From: an uncultured Mycoplasma sp.
Lineage (GTDB): Bacteria > Bacillota_I > Bacilli_A > RF39 > UBA660
DNA: 64,000 nucleotides
Direction: 5' to 3'
Assembly (NCBI GenBank): GCA_946500895.1
Contig: CAMMXG010000003.1
Span: forward strand, 99 to 64,098
Shown here: positions 15,468 through 28,218 of the stretch, piece by piece
How the letters are laid out: each line of letters starts with the position of its first letter
How positions within the stretch are numbered: the stretch's first letter is position 1
The notes under the pieces: model-generated
Databases searched by the model: none
The model's input: the letters and a program-made list of their open reading frames with translations, nothing else
Told to the model about the DNA's origin: nothing
Program-made: the position numbers and the translations under genes

Positions 15468-15632
15468 ATGGACGATTTTATAAAATATCTTTTAGTAACT
15501 GACCAACTTGATGAAGTATTTTGGGGTAAGAAAAAAGAAGCAGAAGATGAGGAAGTTTTGAAAAGAACTTTGAGAAAAAAAGATGATAAAGAAGATAATA
15601 GTCATAAAAATTCTAGTTCATTTACAAAATAA
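15468..15632 (+). CDS. small acidic/basic hypothetical protein (54 aa)
   Basis: ATG with AAAGGAAAA upstream; MDDFIKYLLVTDQLDEVFWGKKKEAEDEEVLKRTLRKKDDKEDNSHKNSSSFTK. Below the ORF-track cutoff. Sits directly upstream of the left uvrB start. Confidence 0.35.
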   Translation: MDDFIKYLLVTDQLDEVFWGKKKEAEDEEVLKRTLRKKDDKEDNSHKNSSSFTK

Positions 15633-15650
15633 TTAGGAAAGGAGTTTTTT

Positions 15651-15959
15651 ATGTTTGAGTTAATATCAAAATATAAACCTAGTGGAGACCAACCACAAGC
15701 GATTGAAAAGTTAGTTAAAGGAATTAATGAGGGCAAGAAAGAACAAGTTTTACTGGGTGCTACTGGTACGGGTAAAACGTTTACGGTTGCTAATGTTATT
15801 AAGGAAGTGAATATGCCTACCCTTGTTTTAGCTCATAATAAAACTTTAGCAGGTCAACTTTATTCAGAATTAAAAGAACTTTTTCCAAATAATCATGTAG
15901 AGTACTTTGTTAGCTATTACGATTATATTGCACACTCCCCTATTTTTAGTACTATTTAA
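15651..15959 (+). pseudogene. uvrB: uvrB 5' remnant (codons 1-92, then 10 unrelated codons and a stop)
   Basis: Nucleotides 15651-15926 align without gaps to 26272-26547 (11 mismatches in 276 nt by manual alignment). Keeps an AAGGAG RBS and the Walker A motif GATGTGKT. Homology ends abruptly after ...YYDY. Confidence 0.9.
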
Positions 15960-16019
15960 TCCCAAAAAATCTTTTAATTAATACTAATTAATACTAGATA
16001 TTACCAATTAATTGAATAA

Positions 16020-16044
16020 AATTTGTGACCTTGTTTCGTGTAAA
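16020..16044 (+). repeat. left copy of 25-bp direct repeat AATTTGTGACCTTG(T/A)TTCGTGTAAA
   Basis: 24/25 identical to 26130-26154. Preceded at 15941-15960 by TATTTTTAGTACTATTTAAT, which matches 26081-26098. Confidence 0.8.
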
Positions 16045-16747
16045 TTCGTGTAAGCATATAGATATACATTTTTTTCTGTTTTATTTTTATGCTATAATTT
16101 TTATATAAAATAAAAGCGTGAATATATGAAAAGTTTAGTTGCATTAAAGTATAAGAATATTTCTTACAAGAAAACTTTGCCACGTTTTTTTATCATGTTA
16201 TTGACCTTTATAATAAAAATGAAAATTTGATAGTTGGAGTTGCTTTTCATGGTAACTATTTGCAGTTTAAATCTCTTGGTAATGCTAATCTTATTGTTAT
16301 TAATAATAAAGATAATTTGCTTTTAGACGAGTAATTTCAATATCTCTAATAATTCTAATGATATTGAGATGTTTCCTTTTGGAGGCTGTGATTATATATT
16401 CATGGAAAAAATATAAAGAATGTGTTAATGAAGAGACTGCTAGAGCAAGAAAATCACATTTAAAGAAACATCAGGATAGAAAAGCATTTGAAAATAGCTT
16501 TTTAGATGATACACAAATTTGAACAATTATATTCTTCATATAATTTTCCTGATGTTAAAGGTATTGGGATTATTTAGAATTTTATTTCTATTTTGGCGAG
16601 CTGGTGTTAGAATAGATATATTAATATAAAAGAAGTAATACTTCATCATAAAGAAAATAAGGATGATTCAAATATCATTTTTACATTATATGGAAAAATC
16701 TATAGATTAGATAATAAAAACTAATATGGCTAAATAGCTAAAAAATG

Positions 16748-16776
16748 TTGACTTTAAAAAAGATATGTATTATTAT
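16748..16776 (+). promoter_or_regulatory. sigma70-type promoter of the island operon
   Basis: TTGACT (16748-16753), 17-nt spacer, TATTAT (16771-16776, reading on as TATTATAAT). Confidence 0.5.
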
Positions 16777-16856
16777 AATAACCCAGTTGGGGGTATTTAC
16801 ATGACAAATAACGACTTTTTTAAATATGGAAATGCAAAAATTTTAAAGATAAATAA

Positions 16857-16896
16857 AAGTGCCTAAATTTTATTAGATTTTTAGACACTTTTTTTA
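16857..16896 (+). terminator. terminator-like hairpin in the operon leader (possible attenuator)
   Basis: AAGTGCCTAAA (16857-16867) pairs with TTTAGACACTT (16880-16890) with one mismatch, followed by a T run. Overlaps the stop of a 21-codon leader ORF (16801-16866) and lies 20 nt before the first operon gene. Confidence 0.4.
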
Positions 16897-16915
16897 TATA
16901 GAAAGAAGGTAGTTT

Positions 16916-17440
16916 ATGGTTTATATTGGAGTTTTATGGAATACTGTAAATCACTTGAGAGAAGAAATATTACAAGATACTAATAATTTTGGTAAAGTGA
17001 TAAACTATTTTGATTGTGATTTAGGTAAAGATTACAATAATTTTGTAAGAAAAATTTATCAATCAGATGGCATTGCTGAATGGAAAGTTGATTTAAAATT
17101 ACAAGCAATGAATATAACGCCAAGTACACATTTAACAATATTTTTTATAGATATTGATGATAGTGAAAAAGAATTAAACGACAGAAAACATAAAATAGTG
17201 TCGGTAAATATGGAAAGAATGAAAAACTCAATTAGGAACAAATACTCACAGATGATTCAAAATTATTTTTTTGATAATGTTTTTCATATGACAGATGATG
17301 AAACAGAACTGGCCAATACGTTAGAAGTAATTAAGGAGTATTTTCCGAACATATATAATGAGTACTTTGAAATTAAGGAAGATACTAATGTTAGAATTAG
17401 AAGAAAAAATGGAAAAGGAGCAGATAAAAATGAAGATTAA
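16916..17440 (+). CDS. hypothetical protein (first gene of the island operon)
   Basis: 174-aa ORF with a GAAGG RBS; overlaps the next start by 11 nt. No confident family assignment by eye. Confidence 0.6.
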   Translation: MVYIGVLWNTVNHLREEILQDTNNFGKVINYFDCDLGKDYNNFVRKIYQSDGIAEWKVDLKLQAMNITPSTHLTIFFIDIDDSEKELNDRKHKIVSVNMERMKNSIRNKYSQMIQNYFFDNVFHMTDDETELANTLEVIKEYFPNIYNEYFEIKEDTNVRIRRKNGKGADKNED

Positions 17441-18284
17441 TAATAAGGAAATTGATGAAAAAAAACCATATGTTATCGCAGAAATCGGCATAAATCATAA
17501 TGGAAGTTTAGATTTAGCAAAAATACTTATTGATATTGCAGTAGAATGTGGATGCGATGCTGTAAAATTTCAAAAAAGAGATGTAGATACTGTTTATACA
17601 CAAGAAGAATTGTTAAAAGAGCGAATAAGCCCTTTCGGAAAAACAAATGGTGATTTAAAAAGAGGATTAGAACTTTCTTATGAAGCTTATCAGAAATTGT
17701 TTAGTTATGCCAGGGAAAAAGAAATAGATATTTTTGCAAGCCCATGGGACTCTAAATCAGTAGATTTTTTAGAGCAATTTTCTCCATGTTGTTATAAAGT
17801 CGCAAGTGCTTCTATAACAGACTATAAACTATTAGAAAAAATCAAAAAAACGGGAAAACCTGTCATTATCTCAACAGGAATGTCTACAGAAGAAGAAATA
17901 GATAACGCCATTAAAATATTTAATCAAAAAAACATTGCAATTTTAGCATGTACGAGTACATATCCAACAGACGATTCAGAAATTAATTTGAATAAAATTA
18001 AAACTTTAAAAAAGAAATATCCTAAAATACCTATAGGATATTCAGGACATGAAAGAGATATTTTCCCTTCGCTAATTGCAGTAGCTTTAGGAGCGTGCAT
18101 TATAGAACGTCACATTACTATAAGTAAAGATATATGGGGAAGCGATCAAAGGGCATCTTTAGAACCGAAGGAATTAAAAGAATTAGTAACTGGCATAAAA
18201 AGAGTGAAAACAATTATGGGAGATGGCAAGATAACAGTATATGATAGTGAACAACCAATTAAGAAAAAATTAAGAAGATATTAG
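17430..18284 (+). CDS. NeuB-family PEP-dependent ulosonic-acid synthase lacking the C-terminal SAF domain
   Basis: Start at the ATG at 17430 (AAGGAG upstream). PYVIAEIGINHNGSLDLAK, DAVKFQ, GYSGHE and IIERHIT motifs are typical of NeuB/SpsE TIM barrels. The protein ends about where the SAF/antifreeze-like domain normally begins. Confidence 0.8.
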   Translation: MKINNKEIDEKKPYVIAEIGINHNGSLDLAKILIDIAVECGCDAVKFQKRDVDTVYTQEELLKERISPFGKTNGDLKRGLELSYEAYQKLFSYAREKEIDIFASPWDSKSVDFLEQFSPCCYKVASASITDYKLLEKIKKTGKPVIISTGMSTEEEIDNAIKIFNQKNIAILACTSTYPTDDSEINLNKIKTLKKKYPKIPIGYSGHERDIFPSLIAVALGACIIERHITISKDIWGSDQRASLEPKELKELVTGIKRVKTIMGDGKITVYDSEQPIKKKLRRY

Positions 18285-18295
18285 GGATGGTTATT

Positions 18296-19450
18296 ATGCA
18301 TAATTTTGAGTTTTTTAATCCAACAAAAATTATATTTGGTGAAAATAAAATTGAAAGCGTTTGTCAATATATTAAGAACTATACATCAACAAATAATATT
18401 TTATTGGTTATTTCTGAAAGTTGTAAAAATAATGGAGTGCTAAAAACAGTAACTAATCAACTAGAAAAAAATAGTATTCAATACTATATTGTTGATGGCA
18501 TTATCCCTAATCCTACTTTAGATAAAGTTTACTATGGAAAAAAAATAATTCAAAATAACAATATAGATTTTATTTTAGCAATTGGAGGAGCTTCTGTAAT
18601 AGACACTGCAAAAACAATTGCAGTTGCTTCTTGTCATAATGAAGATATATGGGATTTAATATGTAATCCAACAAATATAAAAAAATCATTACCTTTAGGA
18701 GTAGTTATTACACTATATGGCTCAGGAACGGAAATGACAAATGGTGCAGTTATTTCAAACATGATGATTACTAAAAAAAGAGGTTTTGATAATGTAAATA
18801 TGTTTCCAAAATTTTCAATATTAGATCCAACTACTTTAAAGAGTTGCAGCCATGAATATCTATCAATAGGATGTATGGATATGTTTACGCATATTATGGA
18901 AGATTATTTTGAAATTACAGACGAAGAAAACTTAGCCGATAGTTTTCAAGAATTATTGGTTAAAAAGATGATAATTGAATTTAAAAAACTAAACAACAAT
19001 AAACAGGATAACGCAAAACTGTTGTGGATGAGTACCTTAGCTCAAAACAAATTTTTATCATTCGGGAAAAAATATAATGGTGAATGGGTAGCACATATCA
19101 TAGGACACGAATTTTGTGTCAGATACAATTTACCACATGGGCAAGTTGTAGCCATTCTTTTTATAGCATGGTTAAATTTTATAAAGAAAATAAATGAGAA
19201 AAGGATAATTCAATTTGGCGTATCAGTATTCGATTTAAAATCTCCTACTTCTACCGAAGTTATAGATGAAATCAAAAAAGTCTATGCTCTACTTAACAAT
19301 ACTTTTACTTTAAAAGATTTAGGAGTCAGGTTAGAAGATATTGATGATATTGTAACGAATGCTATGAATGGTAAAAAATTAGGAAAATTTAAAGAGCTAA
19401 ATAAAGAAGATGTAAAAAATATTATTATGGAGGCTTACAATGGAAATTAA
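18296..19450 (+). CDS. iron-containing (group III) alcohol dehydrogenase family protein
   Basis: FNPTKIIFGEN start, GGASVIDTAK nucleotide-binding motif, and His cluster HIIGHEF...LPHGQ, as in YqhD/BdhA-type enzymes. An alternative ATG at 18287 is possible. Confidence 0.8.
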   Translation: MHNFEFFNPTKIIFGENKIESVCQYIKNYTSTNNILLVISESCKNNGVLKTVTNQLEKNSIQYYIVDGIIPNPTLDKVYYGKKIIQNNNIDFILAIGGASVIDTAKTIAVASCHNEDIWDLICNPTNIKKSLPLGVVITLYGSGTEMTNGAVISNMMITKKRGFDNVNMFPKFSILDPTTLKSCSHEYLSIGCMDMFTHIMEDYFEITDEENLADSFQELLVKKMIIEFKKLNNNKQDNAKLLWMSTLAQNKFLSFGKKYNGEWVAHIIGHEFCVRYNLPHGQVVAILFIAWLNFIKKINEKRIIQFGVSVFDLKSPTSTEVIDEIKKVYALLNNTFTLKDLGVRLEDIDDIVTNAMNGKKLGKFKELNKEDVKNIIMEAYNGN

Positions 19451-20774
19451 ATCACAGAAAGACTTAATAAGTATAGATAAAAAATGGAAAAACATAAAAT
19501 TTAAAGACTCAGAAATACATATTAAAAACATTAAAGATTTCATTACCGATGAACACATCGATATTATTGTTAGATATCTCTATATTAAATCATATATTGA
19601 AGGTGTTAAATATGACAAATACAAAATGATGTACGAAAAAATGATGAAAAAAAGAGTAAATAAAAGTTATTATAATGAATTTAATAAAATTATAAACTCC
19701 TTTAGAAAACATGGATATTTAAAAGAATATCCAATTCCAATTAATAACAAAGGGAAAATGTTAAATGGCTCTCACCGCTTAGCTTGCTGTTTGTATTTTA
19801 ACATTAATCCATATGTTTGTATTTTTGACGAGGAAGATCACGAGTATAATATTAAATGGTTTCACGAAAATGGATTTACTTCTGAAGAGATTATAGAAAT
19901 CGAAAAAACAAAAGAAGAAGTATTAAAAAAATATAGTTTTAACAAAGTATATTTAAAAAATGTATATGCAGCCACAATAACTCCAATTAAAAATGAAAAT
20001 TTAGAAACTGATTATTTTTACAAACATATTAGCACTCTGAAAAAAAATAATATTGATGGGTTATTTTTATGTGGGAACACAGGCAATGGCATGAATCTAA
20101 ATTTTGACCTAAAAAAAGAAGTATTAGAGTATGTGAATAAAATTTCCAAAGAATATTCTTTAATTTTTCACGTCGGTTCTCAAAATACTCAGGATATTGA
20201 AAAAATGATAGCCTTGATTAATAAATCAAATGTTTCTTGCATTGCTTCTATGCCTCCATACCACATAATAGCAAAATTTAATGAAATCAAACAGTTTTAT
20301 GAACGAATTGCCAAATTATCTACTAAGCCAGTATTAATATATCATATTCCAAATATAACTGGAATCAACTTACCTGCGGAAGAAATCATTGAATTGCTAA
20401 GCATTAATAATGTCATAGGAATTAAATATACTGATGCCGATTTAGAAAAGCTGAAAACCATAAGCGAAAATGTAAAAGATAAATATATTTTTTATGGTAA
20501 AGATGATTTGCTATTGAATGGACTTTTGAATGGTGCTAATGCTGGAATAGGAGGCTGTTATAATATTTTTCCAAGTTTTATTTACAAAATAATGAATGGA
20601 AACACATATGCAGAAAGGCTAGATAATCAAAATAAGTTAAATTATGCTATAAAAGTACTAAGGAAAAAATTCCCAACTTTACCTGGAAGCGAATTTGTTT
20701 CAGAAGTATTAAAAATAAAAGCCGATAAAACAGATGAAGAGTTTTATAGATTGTTGGAGGAAGAACATGATTAA
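19440..20774 (+). CDS. fusion protein: ParB/Srx-like N-terminal domain + DHDPS/N-acetylneuraminate-lyase-family class I aldolase
   Basis: N-terminal half has ...PINNKGKMLNGSHRLACCLY (ParB-like DGxHR-type motif). C-terminal half has GLFLCGNTGNG, PVLIYHIP and the Schiff-base-type GIKYT motif of the DapA/NanA family. Confidence 0.7.
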   Translation: MEIKSQKDLISIDKKWKNIKFKDSEIHIKNIKDFITDEHIDIIVRYLYIKSYIEGVKYDKYKMMYEKMMKKRVNKSYYNEFNKIINSFRKHGYLKEYPIPINNKGKMLNGSHRLACCLYFNINPYVCIFDEEDHEYNIKWFHENGFTSEEIIEIEKTKEEVLKKYSFNKVYLKNVYAATITPIKNENLETDYFYKHISTLKKNNIDGLFLCGNTGNGMNLNFDLKKEVLEYVNKISKEYSLIFHVGSQNTQDIEKMIALINKSNVSCIASMPPYHIIAKFNEIKQFYERIAKLSTKPVLIYHIPNITGINLPAEEIIELLSINNVIGIKYTDADLEKLKTISENVKDKYIFYGKDDLLLNGLLNGANAGIGGCYNIFPSFIYKIMNGNTYAERLDNQNKLNYAIKVLRKKFPTLPGSEFVSEVLKIKADKTDEEFYRLLEEEHD

Positions 20775-21828
20775 ATTAGTTGTTTTCGATATTGATGGAG
20801 TATTAACTGATGGCAGTTATTTAATAGATCATTTAGGAAATGAATACAAAAGGATTTGCTTTAAAGACTTAGATAGTTTTAACTTATTAAAACAATTAAA
20901 TATTAAAACTATGTTTTTAACCAGCGAGGCAAATTTTTTAAGCAAATATTTCCAAAAAAAGTTTAACCCTAATTATTTCTTTGATGGAGTAGCAGATAAA
21001 TTTAAAGTATTAACAGATTTCTGTACAAAAAATAATTATAATTTACAAGAAGTATGTTACGTTGGTGATGGCAAAAAAGATTTAGAAGCTATGAAAAATG
21101 TTGGATTATCTATTGCCCCACGCAATAGTATTAGAGAAATAAAGCAAATTGCAACATGCAATCTTGAAGTAGCAGGAGGAAGCGGAGTAGTTTACGAGGT
21201 TTATAATATATTATTAAATATTAACACCGAGTATACTGATAATAATACTTTAAAAAGAATTTTAAATGAACATAAAGCAATTTTATCAAATATGGAAAAT
21301 AATCAGGAACTATTAAATCAATTAAAGCAATCGATAGATATTATTATTAATGCATTAAGAAATAAAAAAATAATATATGCTTGTGGCAATGGTGGAAGTG
21401 CCTCTGATGCACAACACTTTGTAGCAGAATTAATTAGCAAATTTAATTATAATCGTAAATCATTAGGAGCGGTTTCATTAACTACTAATCCTTCGATTAT
21501 AACTTCTATTGGAAATGACTACAATTTCGATAATATATTTAAAAGGCAAATCGAGGGATTGGGTAATAATGGAGATGTTCTTGTTGCACTAAGTACAAGT
21601 GGAAATTCTAATAATATAGTTTTAGCTATAAAGGAAGCATTGGCAAAAGGAATGAAAGTAATATTTTTTACATCAGAAAAATGCAACTCACTTGATAACG
21701 AAAATATGGTTATCTTAAAAGTTCCAAGTTCTGTAACACCGAGAATACAAGAAATTCACATTATGCTAATTCATTACTTATGTGAAGAAATAGAAAATTA
21801 TTTTATGGAGGAAAAAAATGAAAAGTAA
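20767..21828 (+). CDS. fusion protein: KdsC-type HAD phosphatase + GmhA-type SIS sugar-phosphate isomerase
   Basis: Start at the ATG at 20767 (GGAGG upstream, ATGA-type overlap with the preceding stop). N-terminal VVFDIDGVLTDG...YVGDGKKDLEAM (KdsC subfamily). C-terminal CGNGGSASDAQHFVAEL...STSGNSNN...RIQEIHIMLIH is near-canonical GmhA. Confidence 0.8.
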   Translation: MIKLVVFDIDGVLTDGSYLIDHLGNEYKRICFKDLDSFNLLKQLNIKTMFLTSEANFLSKYFQKKFNPNYFFDGVADKFKVLTDFCTKNNYNLQEVCYVGDGKKDLEAMKNVGLSIAPRNSIREIKQIATCNLEVAGGSGVVYEVYNILLNINTEYTDNNTLKRILNEHKAILSNMENNQELLNQLKQSIDIIINALRNKKIIYACGNGGSASDAQHFVAELISKFNYNRKSLGAVSLTTNPSIITSIGNDYNFDNIFKRQIEGLGNNGDVLVALSTSGNSNNIVLAIKEALAKGMKVIFFTSEKCNSLDNENMVILKVPSSVTPRIQEIHIMLIHYLCEEIENYFMEEKNEK

Positions 21829-22963
21829 AACAATATGGCACGTTGGAGGTTATAATCGGAATTATGGTGATTTTGTTCTTTTAGAATCAATTAGAGAAAA
21901 TTTGGAAAAACAATCAGATATACCTCTTAATTTTGTAAATATTGACTGTCAAAGCACTCATTTTTTTAGTGAATTAATTGATGAATTAAATGAAAAAGCA
22001 GATATGCTATTAATTGGGGGTGGAGGATTTATTATGAACCGACACGAAGACAATAGCTTATCTGGATGGCAATGGAGTATCAAAAATGAAGATATAAACA
22101 GAATAAAAGTACCAATAGTTGTTTATGGAATAGGTTATAATAAATTTTACTATGACAATAGAGGGTTTAAAGAACAAATGAACGAATCTTTACTTCTTAC
22201 TCAAAATAAAGCAAAATTATTTTCTGTAAGAAATAATGGTACAAAGGAAGAATTAATAAATAGAGGTTTAAATAAGGATAAAATAGAAGTAATTCCTGAT
22301 TCAGGAATGTTTATTACACCCCTAAAAATAAATGCAAACTTTCTAAATCAAAACAGAATGCTTATAGGCTTAAACTTTGTTTCTGACAGACCACAATTTA
22401 CCTTTCCTGATGATTACAACCAAAGCAAAAGTGAAATTATGAATGAGCTGCTAAAAGCTTGCAAATATTTTATAAAAAAATATAATGCATTAATACTTAA
22501 TATAGATCATATTCTCGGTTTAGATGATGAAATTAATGACTTGTTCAAAAGAGAATTAGGGAAAAATTATTTAGTACTATCAGAGGAGCTCCCGCAAATT
22601 TATCCGCCATCATTGGTAAATGCTCATTTTTTAGCATACATATATCAACAAATGAGTTTTGTAATTGGAATGAGAGGACATTCAAATATTATATCTTTTG
22701 GTATGGGAACACCATTTATTGCAATGGGAACTCATAATAAAAATAGATTTTTTACAAAAGACATTGGAGAAGAGAAATATTTGATAGATTTAAGGGACTA
22801 TAAAATTAGTGCAAAATGTGATATAATCATTAAGAAATCTGAAGAACTATTGCAAGATTCTGATTATAAACAAAGAGCAAAAATAAAAAGAAATAAATTA
22901 AAAAAGGATTTTTGCGATTTTAACAGAAAAATTATAAGGATATTAAAGGAGGAAGAAGATTAG
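21818..22963 (+). CDS. polysaccharide pyruvyl transferase family protein (CsaB/WcaK-like)
   Basis: GGYNRNYGDFVLLESI, LLIGGGGFI and R(G)HS motifs are typical of PS_pyruv_trans proteins. Confidence 0.75.
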   Translation: MKSKTIWHVGGYNRNYGDFVLLESIRENLEKQSDIPLNFVNIDCQSTHFFSELIDELNEKADMLLIGGGGFIMNRHEDNSLSGWQWSIKNEDINRIKVPIVVYGIGYNKFYYDNRGFKEQMNESLLLTQNKAKLFSVRNNGTKEELINRGLNKDKIEVIPDSGMFITPLKINANFLNQNRMLIGLNFVSDRPQFTFPDDYNQSKSEIMNELLKACKYFIKKYNALILNIDHILGLDDEINDLFKRELGKNYLVLSEELPQIYPPSLVNAHFLAYIYQQMSFVIGMRGHSNIISFGMGTPFIAMGTHNKNRFFTKDIGEEKYLIDLRDYKISAKCDIIIKKSEELLQDSDYKQRAKIKRNKLKKDFCDFNRKIIRILKEEED

Positions 22964-22964
22964 T

Positions 22965-23450
22965 ATGGAAATTTTAGATTTATATGATGACTTTGGTCAA
23001 AAATTAAAAGAAACAATAAATAGAGGCGAAAAAACAGAAGAAGGAAAAAATATTATGCTATCTGTAGCTTTTATAAAAAATAGCAAGGGTGAATTTTTAA
23101 TTCAAAAAACTTCTAAAGAAAAAGGAAATAGATATTCTTCAACAGGCGGTCATGTAATGCATGGAGAAACAGGATTAGAAACAATAAAAAGAGAATTAGA
23201 AGAAGAATTAGGAATTAGTGCTACAGAGCAGGATTTAAAATACATTGCAACTTTTAAATATCCAAAAAAGAACTGCATTTTTAATGTCTACTTGCTAAAT
23301 ATAGATATTGACTTATCAAAAATAAAATTACAAGATGAAGAAGTTGAAAGCGTAAAATATCTTTCTGTAGAAGAAATTAATAATATCATTAATAAAGGGA
23401 ATTTCTTAGAATCACACGCTTATATATTCAAGCACTATATTAATAACTAA
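22965..23450 (+). CDS. NUDIX hydrolase
   Basis: Complete Nudix box GGHVMHGETGLETIKRELEEELGI. Confidence 0.85.
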   Translation: MEILDLYDDFGQKLKETINRGEKTEEGKNIMLSVAFIKNSKGEFLIQKTSKEKGNRYSSTGGHVMHGETGLETIKRELEEELGISATEQDLKYIATFKYPKKNCIFNVYLLNIDIDLSKIKLQDEEVESVKYLSVEEINNIINKGNFLESHAYIFKHYINN

Positions 23451-23475: not shown

Positions 23476-25662
23476 ATGAGTGAAGAACTAATTGAAAAAG
23501 AAAAATTAAAAAACACTTTATTAATTATAAAACAAGTATTAGAGTCTGAAAAAGATGGCTTAAATAACTTGTTTGATAGTTTTATTGGAAATCGAGAGCA
23601 ATTATGGAAAATTGCAGAGCAAAAAAAGATTCACATACAAAATTTAGAAGCATCATTAGATAAACCATATTTTGCTAGAATAGATTTCAGCTTTGAAGAT
23701 AGTAATGAGATAAAAACAGTCTATATTGGTAAAAATGGTATAATGAAAGATACTGATGTTATTGTTACAGACTGGAGAGCTCCGATTTCTTCATTATATT
23801 ATGATTCTGAAATAGGTCATTGCAGCTTTATAGCACCAGAAGGAAAAATGGAAGGTGATTTAAGTTTAAAAAGGCAATATGAAATAGAAAAAGGTAGTTT
23901 ATTAAGCTATCATGACGTTGATTTAGTTTCAAACGATGCCCTATTACAGAAATATCTTGATAGCAATAACGATTCAAGAATGAAAAGCATAGTTTCTACA
24001 ATACAAAAAGAACAAAATGATGTAATCAGAAAAAAATTATTTGACAATTTAATAATCCAAGGAGTTGCTGGTTCAGGAAAAACAACAGTAGCATTACATA
24101 GAATGGCTTATTTAGTATATAACTACCGAGATTCTATAAAACAAAGTCAATATTTAGTAATTGGACCAAATCCAGTTTTTCTTAAGTATATTAGTTCTGT
24201 ATTACCCGAATTAGATGTAGCAAGTGTTAAACAAAGTACTTTTGAAGAATTTGCTCAAGATTACATTGGTGAAAAAATTAATATAAATTCTTCGGATAAA
24301 AAAGTAGCAAAAAGTATTGCTGGAAAAATTGATAATGATATAGACAAATTTAAGTCATCAATGAGTTATAAAAATATGCTAGATCAATTTTTAAAAATTT
24401 ATTATTATAGTTTAACTTCTAAAGACTTAGAATTAGATGATTTTATTGTGCTTAAGGCTAACGATATAAAGCAAATTTTTGACAGCACTTTTACAGATAA
24501 TATAAGTCTTGCATCTAGAGTAGATTTAACTATCGAAAAATTAACTAGAGTTATTGAAAATAATATGGATTTATTAATTTCTAATTTTACAGATTATTCA
24601 GTAAAAAAATTTGATAGCGTTAAAGGTACAGAAGGACAAGATAAACTTAGAAAAAAATTAGCTAAAAGTAGAGAAGAACTTCACAAATTTTGTAGAAGTA
24701 CCTTGCGAAAATATTTTTCAAAAGCAAAAATAGATGCTACTAAATTATATAAATTGTTTATAAGTTCTATTGAAAATTATAATATTTTCAAATATCCAAA
24801 TTTAAAATTATTAAAGAAAGAAACCATGCAGAATATAAAAGAAGGACATTACGATTTTGAAGATTTAGCTGCATTAATATATTTACAACATTCTATATCT
24901 CCAAATGTGGATTACAATCAAATTAGACACGTAGTAGTAGATGAGGCACAAGATTTGGGAGAATTTAATTTCTATGTGTTAAAAGAAGCCTTGCCATCAT
25001 CAACATTTAGTATTTTTGGAGATTTAGCACAATCTATTTATGATTATCGTGGTATCAACAATTGGAATATAGTAAATAACATTATGTTTGAGAATAAAGG
25101 AACAATTATAGACTTTAAGAAAAGTTATCGTACAACATCAGAAATAATGGAAGTAGCTGATGAAGTTGCAGAAAATATAGGAATGCTTCGTTCCAATCTA
25201 GTTGTTAGACACGGTAAAGACGTCGACTTTACTATGCTCGAGCAAAACGAAATACCTAGCTATATAGCCCAAAAAATCGAGGAATTTAAAAACAAAGGCT
25301 ATAAAACTATTGCTGTAATTAGCAAAACGAACTTATTATCATGTTATATCAACGATGATTTAGCAGAATTGGGGATAAGAATACCAAATATTACTTTAAA
25401 TGATGATTTGACAGATGAAAGATTTAAAATATGCACTATTTCTAATCAACTAGCAAAAGGATTAGAATTTGATGCAGTTATTATCAATAATGCGAGTGAA
25501 GATATCTATTCTTCATCTAATAATTTAGACATGAAACTTCTATATGTAGCAATAACTAGAGCTCTACATGAACTTGATATTGTTTATTCAGGGAATTTAA
25601 CATTACCATTACAGTCATTTATTAAAAAAAAAGGTGATAATTTAAAATTATCTCTAAATTAA
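23476..25662 (+). CDS. helD: HelD-type UvrD/helicase IV-like superfamily-1 ATPase
   Basis: N-terminal coiled-coil followed by YFARIDF...YIGK...WRAPISSLYY, Walker A GVAGSGKTT, DEAQD Walker B, and C-terminal LYVAITRAL. Confidence 0.8.
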   Translation: MSEELIEKEKLKNTLLIIKQVLESEKDGLNNLFDSFIGNREQLWKIAEQKKIHIQNLEASLDKPYFARIDFSFEDSNEIKTVYIGKNGIMKDTDVIVTDWRAPISSLYYDSEIGHCSFIAPEGKMEGDLSLKRQYEIEKGSLLSYHDVDLVSNDALLQKYLDSNNDSRMKSIVSTIQKEQNDVIRKKLFDNLIIQGVAGSGKTTVALHRMAYLVYNYRDSIKQSQYLVIGPNPVFLKYISSVLPELDVASVKQSTFEEFAQDYIGEKININSSDKKVAKSIAGKIDNDIDKFKSSMSYKNMLDQFLKIYYYSLTSKDLELDDFIVLKANDIKQIFDSTFTDNISLASRVDLTIEKLTRVIENNMDLLISNFTDYSVKKFDSVKGTEGQDKLRKKLAKSREELHKFCRSTLRKYFSKAKIDATKLYKLFISSIENYNIFKYPNLKLLKKETMQNIKEGHYDFEDLAALIYLQHSISPNVDYNQIRHVVVDEAQDLGEFNFYVLKEALPSSTFSIFGDLAQSIYDYRGINNWNIVNNIMFENKGTIIDFKKSYRTTSEIMEVADEVAENIGMLRSNLVVRHGKDVDFTMLEQNEIPSYIAQKIEEFKNKGYKTIAVISKTNLLSCYINDDLAELGIRIPNITLNDDLTDERFKICTISNQLAKGLEFDAVIINNASEDIYSSSNNLDMKLLYVAITRALHELDIVYSGNLTLPLQSFIKKKGDNLKLSLN

Positions 25663-26045: not shown

Positions 26046-26129
26046 TATAGAATAAATGCTAAAATATATTCATCTAATATTATTTAGTACCATTTAATTT
26101 TATTATGTATTATTTAAGGCTAAATGAGA

Positions 26130-26154
26130 AATTTGTGACCTTGATTCGTGTAAA
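26130..26154 (+). repeat. right copy of the 25-bp direct repeat
   Basis: AATTTGTGACCTTGATTCGTGTAAA. Followed by two TTACACGAATTT boxes (26195-26206, 26215-26226), 20 nt apart, upstream of uvrB. Confidence 0.8.
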
Positions 26155-26271
26155 GTTAAAAATAACCTATTTTTTTAAGTTTAATTTATTCTAGTTACAC
26201 GAATTTAGTTTAGAATTACACGAATTTTTTGGTTGATAATAATCATAATAAATTTGAGAAAGGAGTAAAAA

Positions 26272-28218
26272 ATGTTTAAATTAGTGTCAAAATATAAACC
26301 TAGCGGAGACCAACCACAAGCGATTGAAAAGTTAGTTAAAGGAATTAATGAGGGCAAGAAAGAACAAGTTTTACTGGGTGCTACTGGTACGGGTAAAACG
26401 TTTACGGTTGCTAATGTTATTAAGGAAGTGAATAAACCTACCCTTGTTTTAGCTCATAATAAAACTTTAGCAGGTCAACTTTATTCGGAATTAAAAGAGC
26501 TTTTTCCAAATAATCATGTAGAGTACTTTGTAAGTTATTACGATTATTACCAACCGGAAGCTTATGTTCCATCAAGTGATACTTATATTGAAAAAGATGC
26601 ATCTATTAATGATGAAATTGATGAGTTAAGACATAGCGCTACTAGTGCTTTAATTAATTATAAAGATGTTATTGTGGTTGCTAGTGTATCTTGTATTTAT
26701 GGTATTGGTGAGAAAGAAGAATATGAAAAATCCATGCTTATTTTAAATGTAGGGCAAAAAATAAAGAGAAATGATATTATTAATCATTTGGTTGATATGA
26801 CTTATGAGAGAAATGATATTGATTTTCATCGGGGTACATTTAGAAGCCGAGGGGATATTATTGATGTTATTCCGGCAAATGAACATGCTCATGGAATTAG
26901 GATTGAACTTTTTGGTGATGAAATTGATAGAATTTGTACGTTTGACCCTGTAACCGGTGTGGTTGTTAGTGATAAAAAAACAATTACTATTTCTCCGGCT
27001 TCTCACTTTGTTACGAGCCCAGAAAAGTTAGAGGAAGCGATTAGAAGAATTCAAGCTGAACTTGATGAACGTCTTAAAGAGTTGAAAAGTGAAGGAAAGT
27101 TATTAGAAGAGCAAAGGCTTCGCGAGAGAACTAATTATGATATTGAAATGCTTAAGGAAACAGGTTTTTGTAATGGCGTTGAAAATTATTCAAGACACCT
27201 TGCTCTACGTGGTGCTGGGGAAACTCCTACTTGTTTGATTGATTTTTTTCCGAAAGATTTTTTACTAGTCGTAGATGAATCCCATGTTACTTTGCCACAA
27301 GTTAGAGGTATGTATAATGGTGATAGAATGCGAAAGCAAACTTTGGTGGATTATGGATTTCGTCTTCCTAGTGCTCTTGATAATAGGCCTTTAAACTTCC
27401 AGGAATTTGAAAGCAAAATTAATCAAGCTATCTATGTTTCAGCTACTCCTGGTGATTATGAACTTGAACACACTCATGGTGAATACGTTGAACAAATTAT
27501 TCGTCCAACTGGTTTACTTGACCCTACAATTGAAGTCAAACCAACCGAAGGACAAATCGATGATATTATTTCCGAAATACGCTTGCGAATTGAAAAAAAT
27601 GAACGAGTTTTAATTACAACGCTTACCATTCGGATGAGTGAAGAATTAACCAATTATTTAAAAGAAATGGGCATTAAAGTAGCTTATTTGCATAGTGAAA
27701 TAAAAACACTGGAACGTCTTAAAATTATTCGTGAACTAAGACTTGGGGTTTATGATTGTGTTGTTGGTATCAACTTGCTTCGAGAAGGACTTGATATCCC
27801 AGAAGTTAGTTTGATTTGTATTTTGGATGCTGATAAACAAGGATTCTTACGTAGTGAGCGAAGTCTTATTCAAACGATTGGCCGTTGTGCTAGAAATCAA
27901 AATGGTCATGTTATCATGTATGCTGATACAATGAGTGAAGCGATGGATGCCGCCATTAAAGAAACAGCACGTCGTCGGGAAATACAAGAGCAATATAACA
28001 CAGAACATCATATTATTCCTAAAACAATTTCCAAAGAAATTAAAGAAGTTGTTTCTAATGAAATTGAGAATAAAGCTCAAAAACCTAAGATGAGTAAGAA
28101 AGAAAAAGAAAATATCTTAGCAACTTTAGAAGAGGAAATGAAAGAGGCTGCTCGTAATCTTGATTTTGAACGAGCTATGGAACTTCGTGATATCTTACTT
28201 GAAATGAAAAGCAATTAA
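26272..28218 (+). CDS. uvrB: excinuclease ABC subunit B
   Basis: Full-length 648 aa: Walker [23 protein letters not shown], helicase motifs, and a C-terminal UVR domain (..[21 protein letters not shown]). Confidence 0.95.

What the first reader, a model, noticed from the sequence alone, without database searches (positions are those of the whole stretch)
16916..23450. Orphan operon for an uncharacterised 3-deoxy-ulosonic-acid-type sugar pathway
Seven tightly packed same-strand genes, with 4-11-nt overlaps or gaps of 2 nt or less, are followed by helD. The gene products are as follows:
- an unknown 174-aa protein
- a NeuB-family synthase truncated exactly before the usual SAF domain
- a group III Fe-alcohol dehydrogenase
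- a ParB/Srx-like::NAL/DHDPS-like aldolase fusion
- a KdsC-type phosphatase::GmhA isomerase fusion
- a CsaB/WcaK-type pyruvyl transferase
- a NUDIX hydrolase
Established knowledge supports each assignment. NeuB-type enzymes condense PEP with an aldose or aldose-phosphate. KdsC-type HAD phosphatases dephosphorylate Kdo-8-P, Kdn-9-P and Neu5Ac-9-P. GmhA converts sedoheptulose-7-P to glycero-manno-heptose-7-P. The Fe-ADH homologue KdnB oxidises Kdo during Kdo8N synthesis in Shewanella. The inference is that ketose-phosphate is isomerised, extended with PEP, dephosphorylated and then tailored. If the GmhA product is the acceptor, the acid would have 10 carbons, which would be unprecedented. A Kdn-like C9 acid from a hexose-6-P is the conservative alternative. 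Three PEP/pyruvate-using enzymes occur in 6.5 kb. No NeuA/KdsB-type cytidylyltransferase, glycosyltransferase or exporter is present, so the fate of the product is unclear. It could be polymer decoration via the host locus, a free metabolite, or something else.
Basis: partly seen in the sequence, partly recalled or inferred. Interest (0 to 1): 0.8.

Follow-up and report, generated by a model that had tools for sequence, protein, structure and literature searches.

The report
HelD-linked orphan sugar-acid operon
A horizontally acquired eight-gene block in an uncultured gut bacterium most likely builds a modified sialic-acid-like (Kdn-type) sugar acid using unusual nucleotide-handling proteins, and it always travels with the RNA-polymerase rescue factor HelD, a link nobody has described.

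Summary
Seven tightly packed genes (16916-23450) carry the stated domains, and helD follows after a 25-nt gap.

The core is a credible sugar-phosphate to 3-deoxy-2-ulosonic-acid route:
- a GmhA-like isomerase domain;
- a NeuB-type synthase without a SAF domain but with its PEP and metal ligands intact;
- a phosphatase closest to Kdn-9-P phosphatase.

Four things change the picture.
1. The "unknown" 174-aa protein has a nucleoside-diphosphate-kinase fold. In other proteins it is fused to the ParB/Srx-like domain of gene 4. This pair recurs in ordinary nonulosonic-acid glycan and flagellin loci.
2. helD is not a bystander. It is adjacent in all six independent contexts. Every close HelD orthologue examined is preceded by a variable cassette that includes a pyrophosphatase gene (seven cassette forms; three make nonulosonic acids).
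3. The whole block lies on a 10.6-kb island bounded by a duplicated uvrB 5' end.
4. The C10 reading is weakened. The isomerase domain has decayed in one lineage, and the nearest relatives are Kdn-type.

The product, its acceptor and the meaning of the HelD link remain unknown. I rate it a new variant of a known kind, with real interest.

The parts
15626..15925 (+). Left copy of a 300-nt direct repeat. It holds the promoter-proximal region and the first 92 codons of uvrB. The truncated uvrB' ORF is 15651-15959.
   Evidence: The repeat is 93% identical to 26247-26546. The protein fragment is 97% identical to the UvrB N-terminus. Pfam gives ResIII/DEAD.
16019..16044 (+). A 26-nt direct repeat whose partner is at 26129-26154. 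It overlaps the first of two TTCGTGTAA 9-mers (16035-16043; the second is at 16045-16053).
   Evidence: D8, 96% identity. In one search, 5 of the 6 window copies of the 9-mer lie at the two island ends, against 0.46 expected.
16748..16776 (+). Promoter-like site (TTGACT, 17 nt, TATTAT) ahead of the operon.
   Evidence: 10 of 12 matches. Each orthologous operon has its own -35/-10-like pair upstream. This is a consensus match only.
16801..16897 (+). Leader region. It holds a 21-codon uORF (MTNNDFFKYGNAKILKINKSA, stop at 16864-16866). The stop codon lies in the left arm of a terminator-like hairpin (16857-16891) that is followed by a T-run.
   Evidence: Read from the sequence. The hairpin appears in the MFE and centroid folds, but the z-score is only -1.4. 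An analogous uORF plus terminator is seen in L017 but not clearly in L010 or L016. Weak evidence.
It carries an invariant N121 and a nearly invariant H124 in the motif DNVFHMTDD.
   Evidence: No Pfam or NCBIfam hit. The AF2 model has pLDDT 86. All top Foldseek PDB hits are nucleoside diphosphate kinases (E 2e-4; TM-score normalised to target length 0.68). The family has 675 representative clusters.
17430..18284 (+). g2: SAF-less NeuB-family PEP-condensing ulosonic-acid synthase.
   Evidence: PF03102 at 269 bits. It scores below the NeuB and PseI equivalog cutoffs. The best PDB hit is 6ncs, a 290-aa SAF-less chain. Metal and PEP ligands are conserved in the alignment to 1xuu. It is 39% identical to the short NeuB of a Kdn-type locus.
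18287..19450 (+). g3: group III Fe-dependent alcohol dehydrogenase of the butanol-DH/YqhD type, which acts on primary alcohol/aldehyde pairs.
   Evidence: It scores 229 bits to 7w9x, and the D/H/H/H metal ligands are visible in the alignment.
19440..20774 (+). g4: a ParB/Srx-like domain (residues 1 to about 167, motif LNGSHR) fused to a NAL/DHDPS-type class I pyruvate aldolase (about 172-444).
   Evidence: PF00701 at 128 bits. N-acetylneuraminate lyase is the best PDB hit. The Schiff-base Lys329 and Tyr301 are invariant in 17 orthologues. The N-domain AF2 model has pLDDT 93. Its top 22 Foldseek hits are all ParB/Srx folds, with E 0.1-1.
20767..21828 (+). g5: a C0-type HAD phosphatase (closest to Kdn-9-P phosphatase) fused to a GmhA-like SIS isomerase.
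   Evidence: Alignment A5 shows invariant DxD and GDGKKD motifs, Asn in place of the GmhA 'TTD' Asp, and a degenerate SIS domain in L017.
21818..22963 (+). g6: polysaccharide-pyruvyl-transferase-family enzyme (PEP-dependent). It is fused to the NUDIX domain in two orthologous operons.
   Evidence: PF04230 at 86 bits; only 38 bits to CsaB. No PDB sequence hit. The PyrT::NUDIX fusions are in L009 and L017.
22965..23450 (+). g7: NUDIX hydrolase with a canonical Nudix box (GGHVMHGETGLETIKRELEEELGI).
   Evidence: PF00293 at 52 bits. The closest families are MutT-like. The box was read from the translation.
23476..25662 (+). g8: class I HelD, the RNA-polymerase recycling and protection factor. It is probably co-transcribed: the gap is 25 nt and no terminator was found between g7 and helD.
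   Evidence: NF041464 at 426 bits, above the cutoff. It scores 282 bits to B. subtilis HelD 6wvk over residues 48-708. It is adjacent to the cassette in all contexts. Module HelDs are 61-65% identical to each other.
26129..26546 (+). Right island boundary. It holds the 26-nt repeat (26129-26154), three TTCGTGTAA 9-mers (26145 on the + strand; 26195 and 26216 on the - strand) and the right copy of the 300-nt repeat (26247-26546), which runs into intact uvrB (26272-28218).

Best explanation
**The unit.** It is an eight-gene transcription unit, g1-g7 plus helD. It has a promoter near 16748 and a possible weak terminator after 25662. It lies on a 10.6-kb island that entered by recombination at the 5' end of uvrB.

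**Core pathway (inferred from homology).** The operon builds a 3-deoxy-2-ulosonic acid of the Kdn (nonulosonic) type by a sugar-phosphate route.
1. The GmhA-like SIS domain converts a ketose phosphate into a manno-configured aldose phosphate.
2. The SAF-less NeuB condenses that product with PEP.
3. The Kdn-9-P-phosphatase-like HAD domain removes the terminal phosphate.

**Tailoring (inferred).**
- The YqhD-type Fe-ADH interconverts a primary alcohol and an aldehyde. A reasonable guess is the newly exposed terminal CH2OH, as KdnB does on Kdo.
- The NAL-type class I aldolase makes or breaks a pyruvate-derived C-C bond.
- The pyruvyl transferase adds a PEP-derived group.

**Nucleotide and phosphate handling.** No CMP-transferase is present. 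Instead the operon carries three nucleotide or phosphate handlers:
- an NDK-fold protein (g1);
- a ParB/Srx-like domain on g4, from a fold that includes ATP- and CTP-using phosphotransferases;
- a NUDIX hydrolase (g7), which in some orthologues is fused to the pyruvyl transferase.

I infer that g1 and the ParB-like domain act together as an NTP-dependent phosphoryl- or nucleotidyl-transfer step on the sugar acid or its precursor. I infer that NUDIX cleaves a nucleoside-diphosphate-linked intermediate.

**Status of each claim.**
- Shown: gene content, folds, catalytic-residue conservation, synteny and the fusion links.
- Inferred: substrates, order of steps and product.
- Unknown: the acceptor, and the reason for the HelD linkage.
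For: **Domains and residues**
- Searches give the domain calls and the conserved catalytic residues.
- NeuB keeps its PEP and metal ligands. The HAD domain is nearest to Kdn-9-P phosphatase (3e81, 84 bits; NF058599, 100.7 bits).
- The SIS domain is nearest to GmhA (151 bits in PDB).
- NAL keeps Lys329 and Tyr301, which are invariant. The Fe-ADH metal ligands are kept.

**Conservation.** The operon occurs in six unrelated contexts.

**The g1 / ParB-like pair**
- g1 has an NDK fold. The g4 N-domain has a ParB/Srx-like fold.
- The two domains occur fused in P0022, P0023, P0029, P0132, P0140 and P0194. In P0025 the second domain is cut short.
- They occur as separate small genes in two other NeuB-containing cassette types.

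**Link to known nonulosonic-acid biology**
- The fused form sits in a Kdn-type locus: short NeuB, CMP-transferase::HAD, PMI, GT52 sialyltransferase, Wzx and Wzy.
- It also sits next to flagellin and Maf, and in a Wzx/GT2 locus.

**NUDIX link.** PyrT::NUDIX fusions in L009 and L017 tie NUDIX to the pathway.
Against: - No enzyme reaches its equivalog cutoff, so no substrate is established. Scores against cutoffs: NeuB 269 vs 400; GmhA 176 vs 209; Kdn-9-P phosphatase 101 vs 180; NAL 142 vs 281; CsaB 38 vs 213.
- There is no activating cytidylyltransferase, transferase or exporter in any type-A context. A conventional glycan end-point is therefore unexplained.
- The ParB/Srx fold match is weak (E 0.1-1, 55-66 aligned residues).
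- One g1 orthologue has Asp in place of the putative catalytic His.
- Having both a NeuB-type and a NAL-type C-C-bond enzyme is unexplained.
- The invariable HelD linkage is not accounted for by a purely glycan-centred model.
Confidence: 0.55

Rival explanations
1. **HelD-centred nucleotide system.** The sugar-acid genes are one of several interchangeable cassettes. The real unit is [variable small-molecule cassette] - [pyrophosphatase] - [HelD]. The cassette makes or modifies a nucleotide-linked or nucleoside-like compound that acts on RNA polymerase. That compound could be a toxin against competitors or phage, or an incoming RNAP-targeting antibiotic that is being modified. NUDIX or a PPase-like enzyme cleans the pool, and HelD clears or protects the cell's own RNAP.
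For: - Every HelD relative at 61% identity or more with usable upstream sequence (about 33 loci) is preceded by a co-directional cassette. Its last or second-last gene is a NUDIX or inorganic-PPase-like gene, starting 390-760 nt before helD. The exceptions are type E2, where the NUDIX::ATP-grasp fusion starts about 1.7 kb upstream, and type C, where a 487-aa gene intervenes.
- There are seven cassette forms.
  - A: this operon.
  - B and C: NeuB, CMP-transferase, radical-SAM/SPASM, NDK-like, ParB-like, NUDIX.
  - D: radical SAM, nucleoside-phosphorylase-like, B12-radical SAM, PPase-like.
  - E and E2: GT4::APH-kinase, guanylate-kinase-like, and NUDIX with or without ATP-grasp.
  - F: kinase-like, two methyltransferases, NUDIX.
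- Two unrelated pyrophosphatase folds occupy the same position.
- In L009, helD is inverted but still adjacent.
- In the window, helD lies inside the mobilised island.
- Class I HelD protects RNAP from rifampicin (PMC12802891).
Against: - The metagenome survey was seeded on HelD.
- Type-B cassettes also occur without HelD on a serine-recombinase element (L103/L104).
- The ParB-like/NDK-like pair occurs in ordinary surface-glycan loci without HelD.
- HelD relatives at 52-54% identity, and most at 36-46%, lack cassettes.
- No PADLOC defence model matches, apart from generic UvrD and NUDIX hits.
- No toxin, immunity or export gene is evident.
- The pattern could reflect an integration hot spot in one bacterial lineage.
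Confidence: 0.2
2. **Conventional fate.** The product is a tailored nonulosonic acid, for example a pyruvylated Kdn. It is handed to cell-wall or surface-glycan machinery encoded elsewhere in the genome, and the HelD adjacency is only synteny.
For: - Relatives of the ParB-like/NDK-like pair and of the short NeuB lie in Wzx/Wzy/GT52 loci and flagellin/Maf islands.
- The window carries wall-glycopolymer genes on both sides of the island: GtrA, LTA-synthase-like and PMT_2 genes, and a large GT/flippase locus at 38-59 kb.
- Characterised PS_pyruv_trans enzymes act on glycan intermediates (established knowledge of CsaB, WcaK and Pvg1).
Against: - None of six type-A contexts has a cytidylyltransferase, glycosyltransferase or flippase within 10 kb.
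- The flanks are unrelated housekeeping genes: secE-nusG, pheST, scpAB, relA.
- No CMP-activation step is encoded, although types B and C do encode one.
Confidence: 0.15
3. **The first reader's bold reading.** The GmhA-like domain makes glycero-manno-heptose-7-P from sedoheptulose-7-P. NeuB then extends it with PEP to an unprecedented 10-carbon 3-deoxy-ulosonic acid.
For: - The SIS domain is clearly GmhA-like. It scores 205 bits to PRK13936 and 176 to TIGR00441, against 127 to DiaA. It scores 151 bits to solved GmhA structures and keeps the His/Glu/Gln/His active-site set.
- NeuB has substitutions in the sugar pocket relative to Nm NeuB: E134S, N184S, F112W and no SAF Arg314.
Against: - The scores are below both GmhA equivalog cutoffs.
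- The 'TTD' Asp is Asn in every orthologue.
- In L017 the SIS domain has lost the GGS, His, Gln and His residues although the rest of the operon is intact. This is easier to tolerate if the aldose phosphate, such as mannose-6-P, is available from housekeeping metabolism.
- The HAD domain is nearest to Kdn-9-P phosphatase.
- NeuB is 39% identical to the short NeuB of a locus that uses a cupin-type mannose-6-P isomerase.
- GmhA chemistry on fructose-6-P would yield mannose-6-P (inference).
Confidence: 0.1

Closest known systems
Kdn biosynthesis of Bacteroides thetaiotaomicron type (Kdn-9-P synthase, then the Kdn-9-P phosphatase BT1713, then CMP-Kdn synthetase), and the vertebrate NANS/NANP route
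   Same: - The logic is the same: sugar phosphate, PEP condensation, then dephosphorylation.
- The HAD domain's best structural relative by sequence is BT1713 (3e81, 84 bits).
- A metagenomic Kdn-type locus (L020) has a 39%-identical SAF-less NeuB together with the ParB-like/NDK-like protein.
   Different: - There is no CMP-transferase and no transferase.
- The isomerase is GmhA-like rather than a cupin PMI.
- Extra Fe-ADH, NAL-like, pyruvyl-transferase and NUDIX genes are present.
- The operon is linked to helD.
Kdo pathway KdsD-KdsA-KdsC, and Kdo8N tailoring by KdnB/KdnA in Shewanella
   Same: - The three-step architecture is the same: SIS isomerase, PEP-dependent synthase, C0 HAD phosphatase.
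- An Fe-ADH that could oxidise the terminal alcohol of the free acid, as KdnB does. This is an analogy from established knowledge, not tested here.
   Different: - The synthase is NeuB-family, not KdsA.
- The SIS domain is GmhA-like, not KdsD-like.
- There is no aminotransferase and no KdsB.
Canonical bacterial nonulosonic-acid clusters (NeuC-NeuB-NeuA; Pse and Leg pathways with PseG or LegG nucleotide-sugar hydrolases)
   Same: - Cassette types B and C next to HelD orthologues contain these genes: NeuB with SAF, a NeuC-type 2-epimerase and CTP_transf_3.
- They share the NDK-like, ParB-like and NUDIX genes with the window operon.
   Different: The window operon (type A) lacks NeuC, NeuA, the radical-SAM enzyme and the roughly 485-aa GT-B-like protein. 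In their place it has SIS, Fe-ADH, NAL and PyrT.
Class I HelD (B. subtilis YvgS/HelD), an RNAP recycling and rifampicin target-protection factor
   Same: The alignment is full-length (282 bits to 6wvk; NF041464 above cutoff). The DWRAP-type motif 'VTDWRAPI' is present.
   Different: - The N-terminal arm is shorter.
- The gene is embedded at the end of a biosynthetic operon and preceded by a pyrophosphatase gene. This arrangement is not described in the HelD literature I could search (PMC8655204, PMC10719064, PMC12802891).

Membership tests
NeuB / nonulosonic-acid synthase (PF03102; TIGR03569 NeuB, TIGR03586 PseI) | NeuB TIM-barrel domain with metal ligands (Nm NeuB H215, H236) and PEP/catalytic residues (E25, K53, K129, S132, S154, S213, E234) | tested here: met
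   PF03102 at 269 bits. All listed residues are conserved in the phmmer alignment to 1xuu.
NeuB / nonulosonic-acid synthase (PF03102; TIGR03569 NeuB, TIGR03586 PseI) | C-terminal SAF/AFP-like domain supplying Arg314, and a score above the equivalog cutoff | tested here: not met
   There is no SAF hit. The protein ends at model position 277 of 329. Scores are 269 against 399.65 (NeuB) and 237 against 340.25 (PseI). It is a SAF-less subfamily, not a truncation.
C0-type HAD phosphatase (KdsC, Kdn-9-P phosphatase) | HAD DxD nucleophile motif, capless C0 architecture of about 160 aa, and the equivalog score | tested here: inconclusive
   The motifs FDIDG and GDGKKD are invariant. The best hits are NF058599 at 100.7 bits (cutoff 180) and TIGR01670 at 79.7 bits (cutoff 106.95). 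3e81 scores 84 bits. Family membership is clear; substrate is not established.
GmhA (sedoheptulose-7-P isomerase) | SIS fold with the active-site His/Glu/Gln/His set and the equivalog score | tested here: inconclusive
   H, E, Q and H are retained. TIGR00441 scores 175.7 against a cutoff of 209.45, and PRK13936 scores 204.6 against 276. The 'TTD' Asp is Asn in all orthologues, and the domain is degenerate in L017.
DiaA (regulatory SIS protein) | Best match to the DiaA model | tested here: not met
   126.7 bits against a cutoff of 352, well below the GmhA scores.
NAL/DHDPS class I aldolase (PF00701) | Schiff-base Lys, catalytic Tyr and the GxxGE-type carboxylate loop | tested here: met
   K329 ('IGIKYTD') and Y301 are invariant in 17 sequences. 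The loop reads GNTGN. The N-acetylneuraminate lyase equivalog is not reached (141.6 against 281).
Group III Fe-alcohol dehydrogenase | PF00465 and PF25137 domains plus the Asp/His/His/His metal site | tested here: met
   The KdnB-like function is an analogy only and was not tested.
Polysaccharide pyruvyl transferase (PF04230; CsaB, WcaK) | A full-length PF04230 match, and the equivalog score for a characterised member | tested here: inconclusive
   PF04230 scores 86 bits over model positions 1-280. CsaB scores only 38 bits against 213, and WcaK 17 bits. There is no PDB sequence hit.
Nucleoside diphosphate kinase | NDK ferredoxin-like fold, the sequence family, and a catalytic His in an NxxH motif | tested here: inconclusive
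   The fold criterion is met: all top Foldseek hits are NDKs. No NDK Pfam or NCBIfam hit was found. N121 is invariant. H124 is present in 11 of 12 sequences; one has Asp. It has the NDK fold but is not a member of the NDK sequence family.
ParB/Srx superfamily | ParB N-terminal/sulfiredoxin fold with a GxxR-type nucleotide-binding motif | tested here: inconclusive
   The top 22 Foldseek hits are all ParB/Srx folds, but with E 0.1-1 and 55-66 aligned residues. The motif G110, H112 and R113 (in 'LNGSHR') is invariant and S111 nearly so. NCBI names two relatives as ParB N-terminal domain proteins. Only a 13-bit ParBc_2 hit was found, for a type-C homologue.
Class I HelD | Full-length match to the HelD_BACSU equivalog and to solved HelD-RNAP structures | tested here: met
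   NF041464 at 426.2 bits against a cutoff of 419. 6wvk at 282 bits over residues 48-708.
Complete nonulosonic-acid glycosylation system (synthase, CMP-transferase, glycosyltransferase) | A cytidylyltransferase and a transferase in the same locus | tested here: not met
   Both are absent from the island and from ±10 kb in all type-A contexts. They are present in types B and C and in L020 and L105.
Known anti-phage defence systems (PADLOC-DB 2.0) | A match of system components to PADLOC models | tested here: not met
   Only generic GajB/UvrD hits for HelD and one candidate NUDIX model (PDC-S07) were found. There was nothing for g1-g6.

The most novel reading that the evidence does not exclude
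In a clade of uncultured low-GC gut Bacilli, class I HelD and a small pyrophosphatase form the constant end of a diversifying locus. Its interchangeable cassettes each make a different nucleotide-linked or nucleoside-like metabolite aimed at RNA polymerase. The cassettes include nonulosonic-acid pathways with NDK-fold and ParB/Srx-like proteins, radical-SAM plus nucleoside-phosphorylase sets, and GT4::kinase sets. HelD and the pyrophosphatase would act as self-protection. The window operon would be the member that produces a phosphorylated or nucleotide-bound higher ulosonic acid, possibly extended at both ends by the NeuB and NAL enzymes.
Probability: 0.2. Interest if true: 0.9.

Novelty: new variant of a known kind. 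Interest (0 to 1): 0.66.

Why it matters
- **New accessory components.** If the pathway works as inferred, nonulosonic-acid-type sugars can be made and processed without the universal CMP-activation step. The cell would instead use two uncharacterised nucleotide-handling domains: an NDK-fold family of about 675 sequence clusters with no Pfam model, and a ParB/Srx-like domain. Both also occur in ordinary capsule and flagellin glycosylation loci. That identifies a missing, testable accessory step in bacterial sialic-acid-like sugar biology.
- **HelD.** The strict pairing of class I HelD with a pyrophosphatase and swappable biosynthetic cassettes offers a concrete lead on two open questions. One is why bacteria carry particular HelD versions. 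The other is what natural RNAP-directed stresses HelD evolved against.

Tried and rejected
- **RNA genes.** The Rfam gathering scan and tRNA scan of the window found nothing.
- **g1 as a duplicate of the g4 N-domain.** BLASTP shows no similarity. They are partners, not paralogues.
- **Defence-system membership.** PADLOC gives nothing specific.
- **Phage or plasmid origin.** tblastn of g1 against INPHARED phages, and of the g4 N-domain against phages and PLSDB plasmids, found no match.
- **PDB by sequence.** There were no hits for the pyruvyl transferase or for an NDK-like fusion protein, P0090. My impression that the C-terminus of P0090-type fusions is HipA-kinase-like rests on motif memory only and is not claimed.
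- **The roughly 485-aa protein of types B and C as a pyruvyl-transferase homologue.** BLASTP shows no similarity. There are only faint PseG and Epimerase_2 (GT-B) hints.
- **Leader attenuator.** The uORF and hairpin are present, but the fold z-score is -1.4 and conservation is patchy. I keep it as a side note.
- **Tandem HelD arrays.** The upstream helicase fragment in L027 is not HelD-like at 1e-8. Only L058 and L065 have two HelD copies.
- **Catabolic (sialic-acid utilisation) reading.** I rejected it because a NeuB synthase is present and no transporter, NanK or NanE is.
- **Literature.** Searches for any description of NeuB/NUDIX/ParB/NDK or HelD/NUDIX neighbourhoods returned nothing relevant.
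- **Exact-sequence look-up of g5 from the longer start** failed. It succeeded from Met12.

Full report
**1. Observation**

The window is uniformly AT-rich, about 27% G+C. Seven co-directional ORFs occupy 16916-23450, and helD follows. With the best-supported starts the junctions are 11-nt, 8-nt or 11-nt overlaps, or 1-2-nt gaps. helD starts 25 nt after the NUDIX stop.

- NeuB (PF03102 only).
- Fe-ADH.
- DHDPS/NAL behind about 170 unassigned residues.
- A KdsC/Kdn-9-P-phosphatase-type HAD domain fused to a GmhA-type SIS domain.
- PS_pyruv_trans.
- NUDIX.
- HelD (NF041464, above its cutoff).

Gene 1 has no family hit. Nothing in the island encodes a cytidylyltransferase, a glycosyltransferase or an exporter. 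The description is accurate.

**2. The block is an island**

A 300-nt direct repeat (15626-15925 and 26247-26546, 93% identical) duplicates the promoter-proximal region and the first 92 codons of uvrB. The left copy is a truncated uvrB' ORF. The right copy runs into intact uvrB.

This is the arrangement expected from single-crossover (Campbell-type) insertion of a 10.6-kb DNA circle that carried a diverged uvrB 5' end. A 26-nt repeat (16019 and 26129) lies just inside the two ends. So do five of the window's six copies of TTCGTGTAA, against 0.46 expected.

helD lies inside the inserted segment. No integrase is present, and neither phage nor plasmid collections contain relatives of g1 or of the g4 N-domain.

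**3. The operon is conserved, rare and always accompanied by helD**

- The exact g5 protein is found on 23 metagenomic contigs with the same arrangement.
- The g4 fusion has only 17 full-length homologue clusters among 5.8 billion proteins.
- It occurs in 3 of 185,579 species genomes, all uncultured gut Bacilli or 'Clostridia' MAGs.
- Orthologous operons at 45-79% protein identity sit in unrelated neighbourhoods: pheST, secE-nusG, scpAB and relA.
- In every case a 717-738-aa HelD is adjacent. Once it is inverted on the upstream side (L009).
- In L009 and L017 the pyruvyl transferase and NUDIX are one polypeptide.
- The HelDs of these operons are 61-65% identical to one another, the same range as the biosynthetic proteins.
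- The protein is a genuine class I HelD, scoring 282 bits to B. subtilis HelD in 6wvk.

**4. The enzymes**

*NeuB.* It aligns to N. meningitidis NeuB (Nm NeuB) with E25, K53, Q55, K129, S132, S154, S213, H215, E234 and H236 conserved. Sugar-pocket positions differ (F112W, E134S, N184S), and there is no SAF Arg314. The best solved relative is itself a 290-aa SAF-less protein, 6ncs. PMC8208679 reports that about 10% of KEGG NeuBs lack SAF, and notes the same F112W change in that group. The enzyme is a natural short form and probably active.

*HAD domain.* It keeps the DxD motif and is closer to the Bacteroides Kdn-9-P phosphatase than to KdsC. The scores are 84 bits for 3e81 against about 55 for KdsC, and 100.7 bits for NF058599.

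*SIS domain.* It is clearly GmhA-like (151 bits to solved GmhAs; His/Glu/Gln/His retained), not DiaA-like. It falls below both GmhA equivalog cutoffs. The Asp of the GmhA 'TTD' motif is Asn in every orthologue. In L017 the domain has lost the GGS, His, Gln and His residues while the rest of the operon is intact.

*Fe-ADH.* It is of the butanol-DH/YqhD type, which acts on primary alcohols and aldehydes, and its metal site is intact.

*NAL-like domain.* It keeps the Schiff-base Lys and catalytic Tyr in all 17 orthologues, and a 'G[KR]DD' motif where NALs have 'GxDE'.

*Pyruvyl transferase.* It is a full-length PF04230 member but remote from CsaB and WcaK.

*NUDIX.* It has a canonical Nudix box.

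**5. The two unknowns**

Gene 1 gives a confident AlphaFold model (pLDDT 86). All of its top PDB matches are nucleoside diphosphate kinases. It carries an NDK-like N-x-x-H motif (N121 invariant, H124 in 11 of 12 sequences).

The g4 N-domain also models confidently (pLDDT 93). Its 22 best matches are all ParB/Srx-fold proteins: pNOB8 ParB-N, sulfiredoxin, Noc, CDP-bound ParB and KorB. The E-values are weak, however (0.1-1). Its G110, H112 and R113, in the motif 'LNGSHR', are invariant. NCBI labels two relatives as ParB N-terminal domain proteins.

The two domains are directly fused in other proteins, so they work together. P0022, P0023, P0029, P0132, P0140 and P0194 carry both; in P0025 the second domain is cut short.

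An exhaustive HMM search finds 675 representative clusters of the NDK-like domain. Some are stand-alone. Others are fused to the ParB-like domain, to a radical-SAM domain (P0124, CxxxCxxC visible), or to a region of P0194 that resembles the Maf-type N-terminal part of P0025 by eye (not tested). Neither domain has a Pfam model that detects it.

**6. Where the pair occurs**

- P0023 lies in a textbook Kdn-type surface-glycan locus. The locus has a short NeuB that is 39% identical to g2, a CMP-transferase::HAD fusion, a cupin mannose-6-P isomerase, a methyltransferase, Wzx, a GT52 sialyltransferase, Wzy and a GT2.
- P0025 lies beside flagellin genes and a Maf glycosyltransferase.
- P0053 lies in a Wzx/GT2 locus with CMP-transferase::HAD, a short NeuB and a second ParB-like/NDK-like protein.

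The pair is therefore an accessory component of nonulosonic-acid pathways in general. It also shows that relatives do live in ordinary loci with cytidylyltransferases and sialyltransferases. The window-type operon never does.

**7. HelD orthologues carry interchangeable cassettes**

A metagenome scan seeded with the HelD alignment returned 80 loci. I classified them by tblastn with proteins annotated through Pfam.

Every locus whose HelD is at least 61% identical to the window's, and that has enough upstream sequence to judge, has a co-directional cassette. There are about 33 such loci. The last or second-last gene of each cassette is a NUDIX or an inorganic-pyrophosphatase-like gene.

| Type | Loci | Cassette content |
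|---|---|---|
| A | window; partial in L053 | this operon |
| B | L027, L071; L059 rearranged, on the opposite strand downstream of helD | ParB-like, CMP-transferase, deacetylase, NeuB+SAF, NeuC-type epimerase, NDK-like, radical-SAM/SPASM, an approximately 482-aa unknown, NUDIX |
| C | L024/25 | HAD, ParB-like, short NeuB, CMP-transferase, NDK-like, radical-SAM/SPASM, NUDIX, an approximately 487-aa unknown |
| D | 11 complete loci plus 2 partial | LysR, radical SAM, nucleoside-phosphorylase-like, two unknowns, B12-radical SAM, PPase-like |
| E, E2 | L035-41; L044, L047, L049, L051, L052, L089 | GT4::APH-type kinase, guanylate-kinase-like, NUDIX or NUDIX::ATP-grasp |
| F | L046 | kinase-like, two methyltransferases, NUDIX |

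HelDs at 52-54% identity, and most at 36-46%, lack such cassettes, though a few have them. Conversely, a type-B cassette occurs without HelD on a serine-recombinase element inserted in a D-Ala-D-Ala carboxypeptidase gene (L103/L104).

I found no description of this arrangement in the HelD literature available to me (PMC8655204, PMC10719064). PMC12802891 shows that class I HelD protects RNAP from rifampicin.

**8. Interpretation**

The best-supported reading is a biosynthetic operon for a tailored Kdn-type 3-deoxy-2-ulosonic acid made from a sugar phosphate. An unconventional nucleotide or phosphate step (NDK-fold protein, ParB/Srx-like domain and NUDIX) takes the place of CMP activation.

One chemically economical order, which is inference only, is as follows:
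1. The phosphatase exposes the terminal CH2OH.
2. The Fe-ADH oxidises it to an aldehyde, as KdnB does on Kdo.
3. The NAL-type aldolase adds pyruvate there.
4. The pyruvyl transferase, fused to NUDIX in two lineages, acts on a nucleoside-diphosphate-linked species that NUDIX then cleaves.

*C9 versus C10.* GmhA-type chemistry on fructose-6-P would give mannose-6-P, the Kdn precursor. The decay of the SIS domain in L017 is easier to tolerate for a substrate that housekeeping enzymes supply. The nearest NeuB and HAD relatives are Kdn-type. I therefore put the C10 reading at about 0.1.

*Host-locus decoration.* This lacks support because the flanks differ everywhere.

*The HelD linkage.* It is either functional or the signature of a lineage-specific variable locus. 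A functional link would mean the cassette products are nucleotide-like RNAP ligands, with the pyrophosphatase and HelD as protection. The evidence does not decide between these. I give the functional reading 0.2.

**9. Novelty and score**

The enzymes belong to known families, and the core logic is that of the Kdn and Kdo pathways, so this is a new variant of a known kind. Four things are new:
- the NDK-fold/ParB-like accessory pair;
- the absence of any CMP-transferase or transferase;
- the combination of three PEP- or pyruvate-using enzymes;
- the obligate association with helD in a family of swappable cassettes.

Interest is 0.66. It stays substantial because of the new accessory domains and the HelD pattern.

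Noticed in passing
window 15626-15959 and 26129-26546: The operon plus helD lies on a 10.6-kb insertion bounded by a 300-nt, 93%-identical duplication of the uvrB 5' end. The left copy is a truncated uvrB' and the right copy is intact uvrB. The structure looks like Campbell-type integration of a circle carrying a diverged uvrB 5' fragment. No integrase is present.
   Followed up: partly
window 16035-16053, 26145-26153, 26195-26224: The 9-mer TTCGTGTAA occurs 6 times in 64 kb against 0.46 expected. Five copies are clustered just inside the two island ends: direct copies on the left, and mixed orientation on the right, immediately upstream of uvrB. They could be operator sites for uvrB or recombination sites.
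   Followed up: partly
window 16801-16897: A 21-codon uORF has its stop codon inside the left arm of a terminator-like hairpin with a T-run, directly upstream of gene 1. L017 has an analogous uORF and terminator. This may be ribosome-mediated attenuation, but the fold z-score is only -1.4 and conservation is patchy.
   Followed up: partly
L022-L054, L074, L089 (HelD at locus position ~10001 where full flanks were retrieved): Every HelD orthologue at 61% identity or more is preceded by one of seven different cassette forms, each including a NUDIX or PPase-like gene. These include radical-SAM/nucleoside-phosphorylase/B12-radical-SAM sets and GT4::APH-kinase/guanylate-kinase sets. Some loci carry remnants of a second pyrophosphatase gene further upstream (L046, L061, L071, L089), which suggests cassette shuffling.
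   Followed up: partly
L103 1172-13933, and L104: A type-B nonulosonic-acid cassette lies next to two large serine recombinases. It holds NUDIX, a 481-aa unknown, a CMP-transferase, a deacetylase, NeuB, NeuC, radical-SAM/SPASM, the ParB-like gene and the NDK-like gene. It sits between the two halves of a split Peptidase_S11 (PBP5-type) gene. It is a mobile element that carries the cassette without HelD.
   Followed up: partly
proteins P0090, P0098, P0124, P0141, P0194: The NDK-like domain of gene 1 belongs to an unmodelled family of about 675 clusters. Its architectures include a radical-SAM::NDK-like fusion and a 1120-aa protein with a Maf-like region, the ParB-like domain, the NDK-like domain and a nucleotidyltransferase-like tail. 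There are also proteins of about 450 aa whose C-terminal half carries a 'QSDRxxxNWG...APLYDN' motif of unknown identity.
   Followed up: partly
L017 11319-12374: In one orthologous operon the GmhA-like SIS domain has lost its conserved GGS, His, Gln and His residues, while the HAD domain and all other genes stay intact. The isomerase activity is therefore dispensable in that lineage.
   Followed up: yes
window 38297-59123 and 7234-15356: Large wall-glycopolymer gene sets flank the island region. They include PMT_2-type glycosyltransferases, two LTA-synthase-like sulfatase-family proteins, GtrA, three GT1/GT4 enzymes, an O-antigen-ligase::WecG/TagA fusion (732 aa), a flippase and a GT4 (MraY/WecA-type) initiating transferase. 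None of this is conserved next to the operon in other genomes.
   Followed up: partly
L102 6316-13579: Precomputed Pfam annotation places the domain PF22674 (C2185-like_N) on several GT8, GT2 and methyltransferase proteins in a polysaccharide locus. A weak hit is also on record for P0059, a distant relative of the ParB-like domain. My own hmmscan of P0059 did not reproduce that hit, so the relationship is uncertain.
   Followed up: partly
L019 10001-11095 (P0027): The ParB-like/NDK-like homologue P0027 is unusually Trp-rich, and its locus does not translate to the query under table 11. This suggests an organism with an alternative genetic code (UGA = Trp).
   Followed up: no
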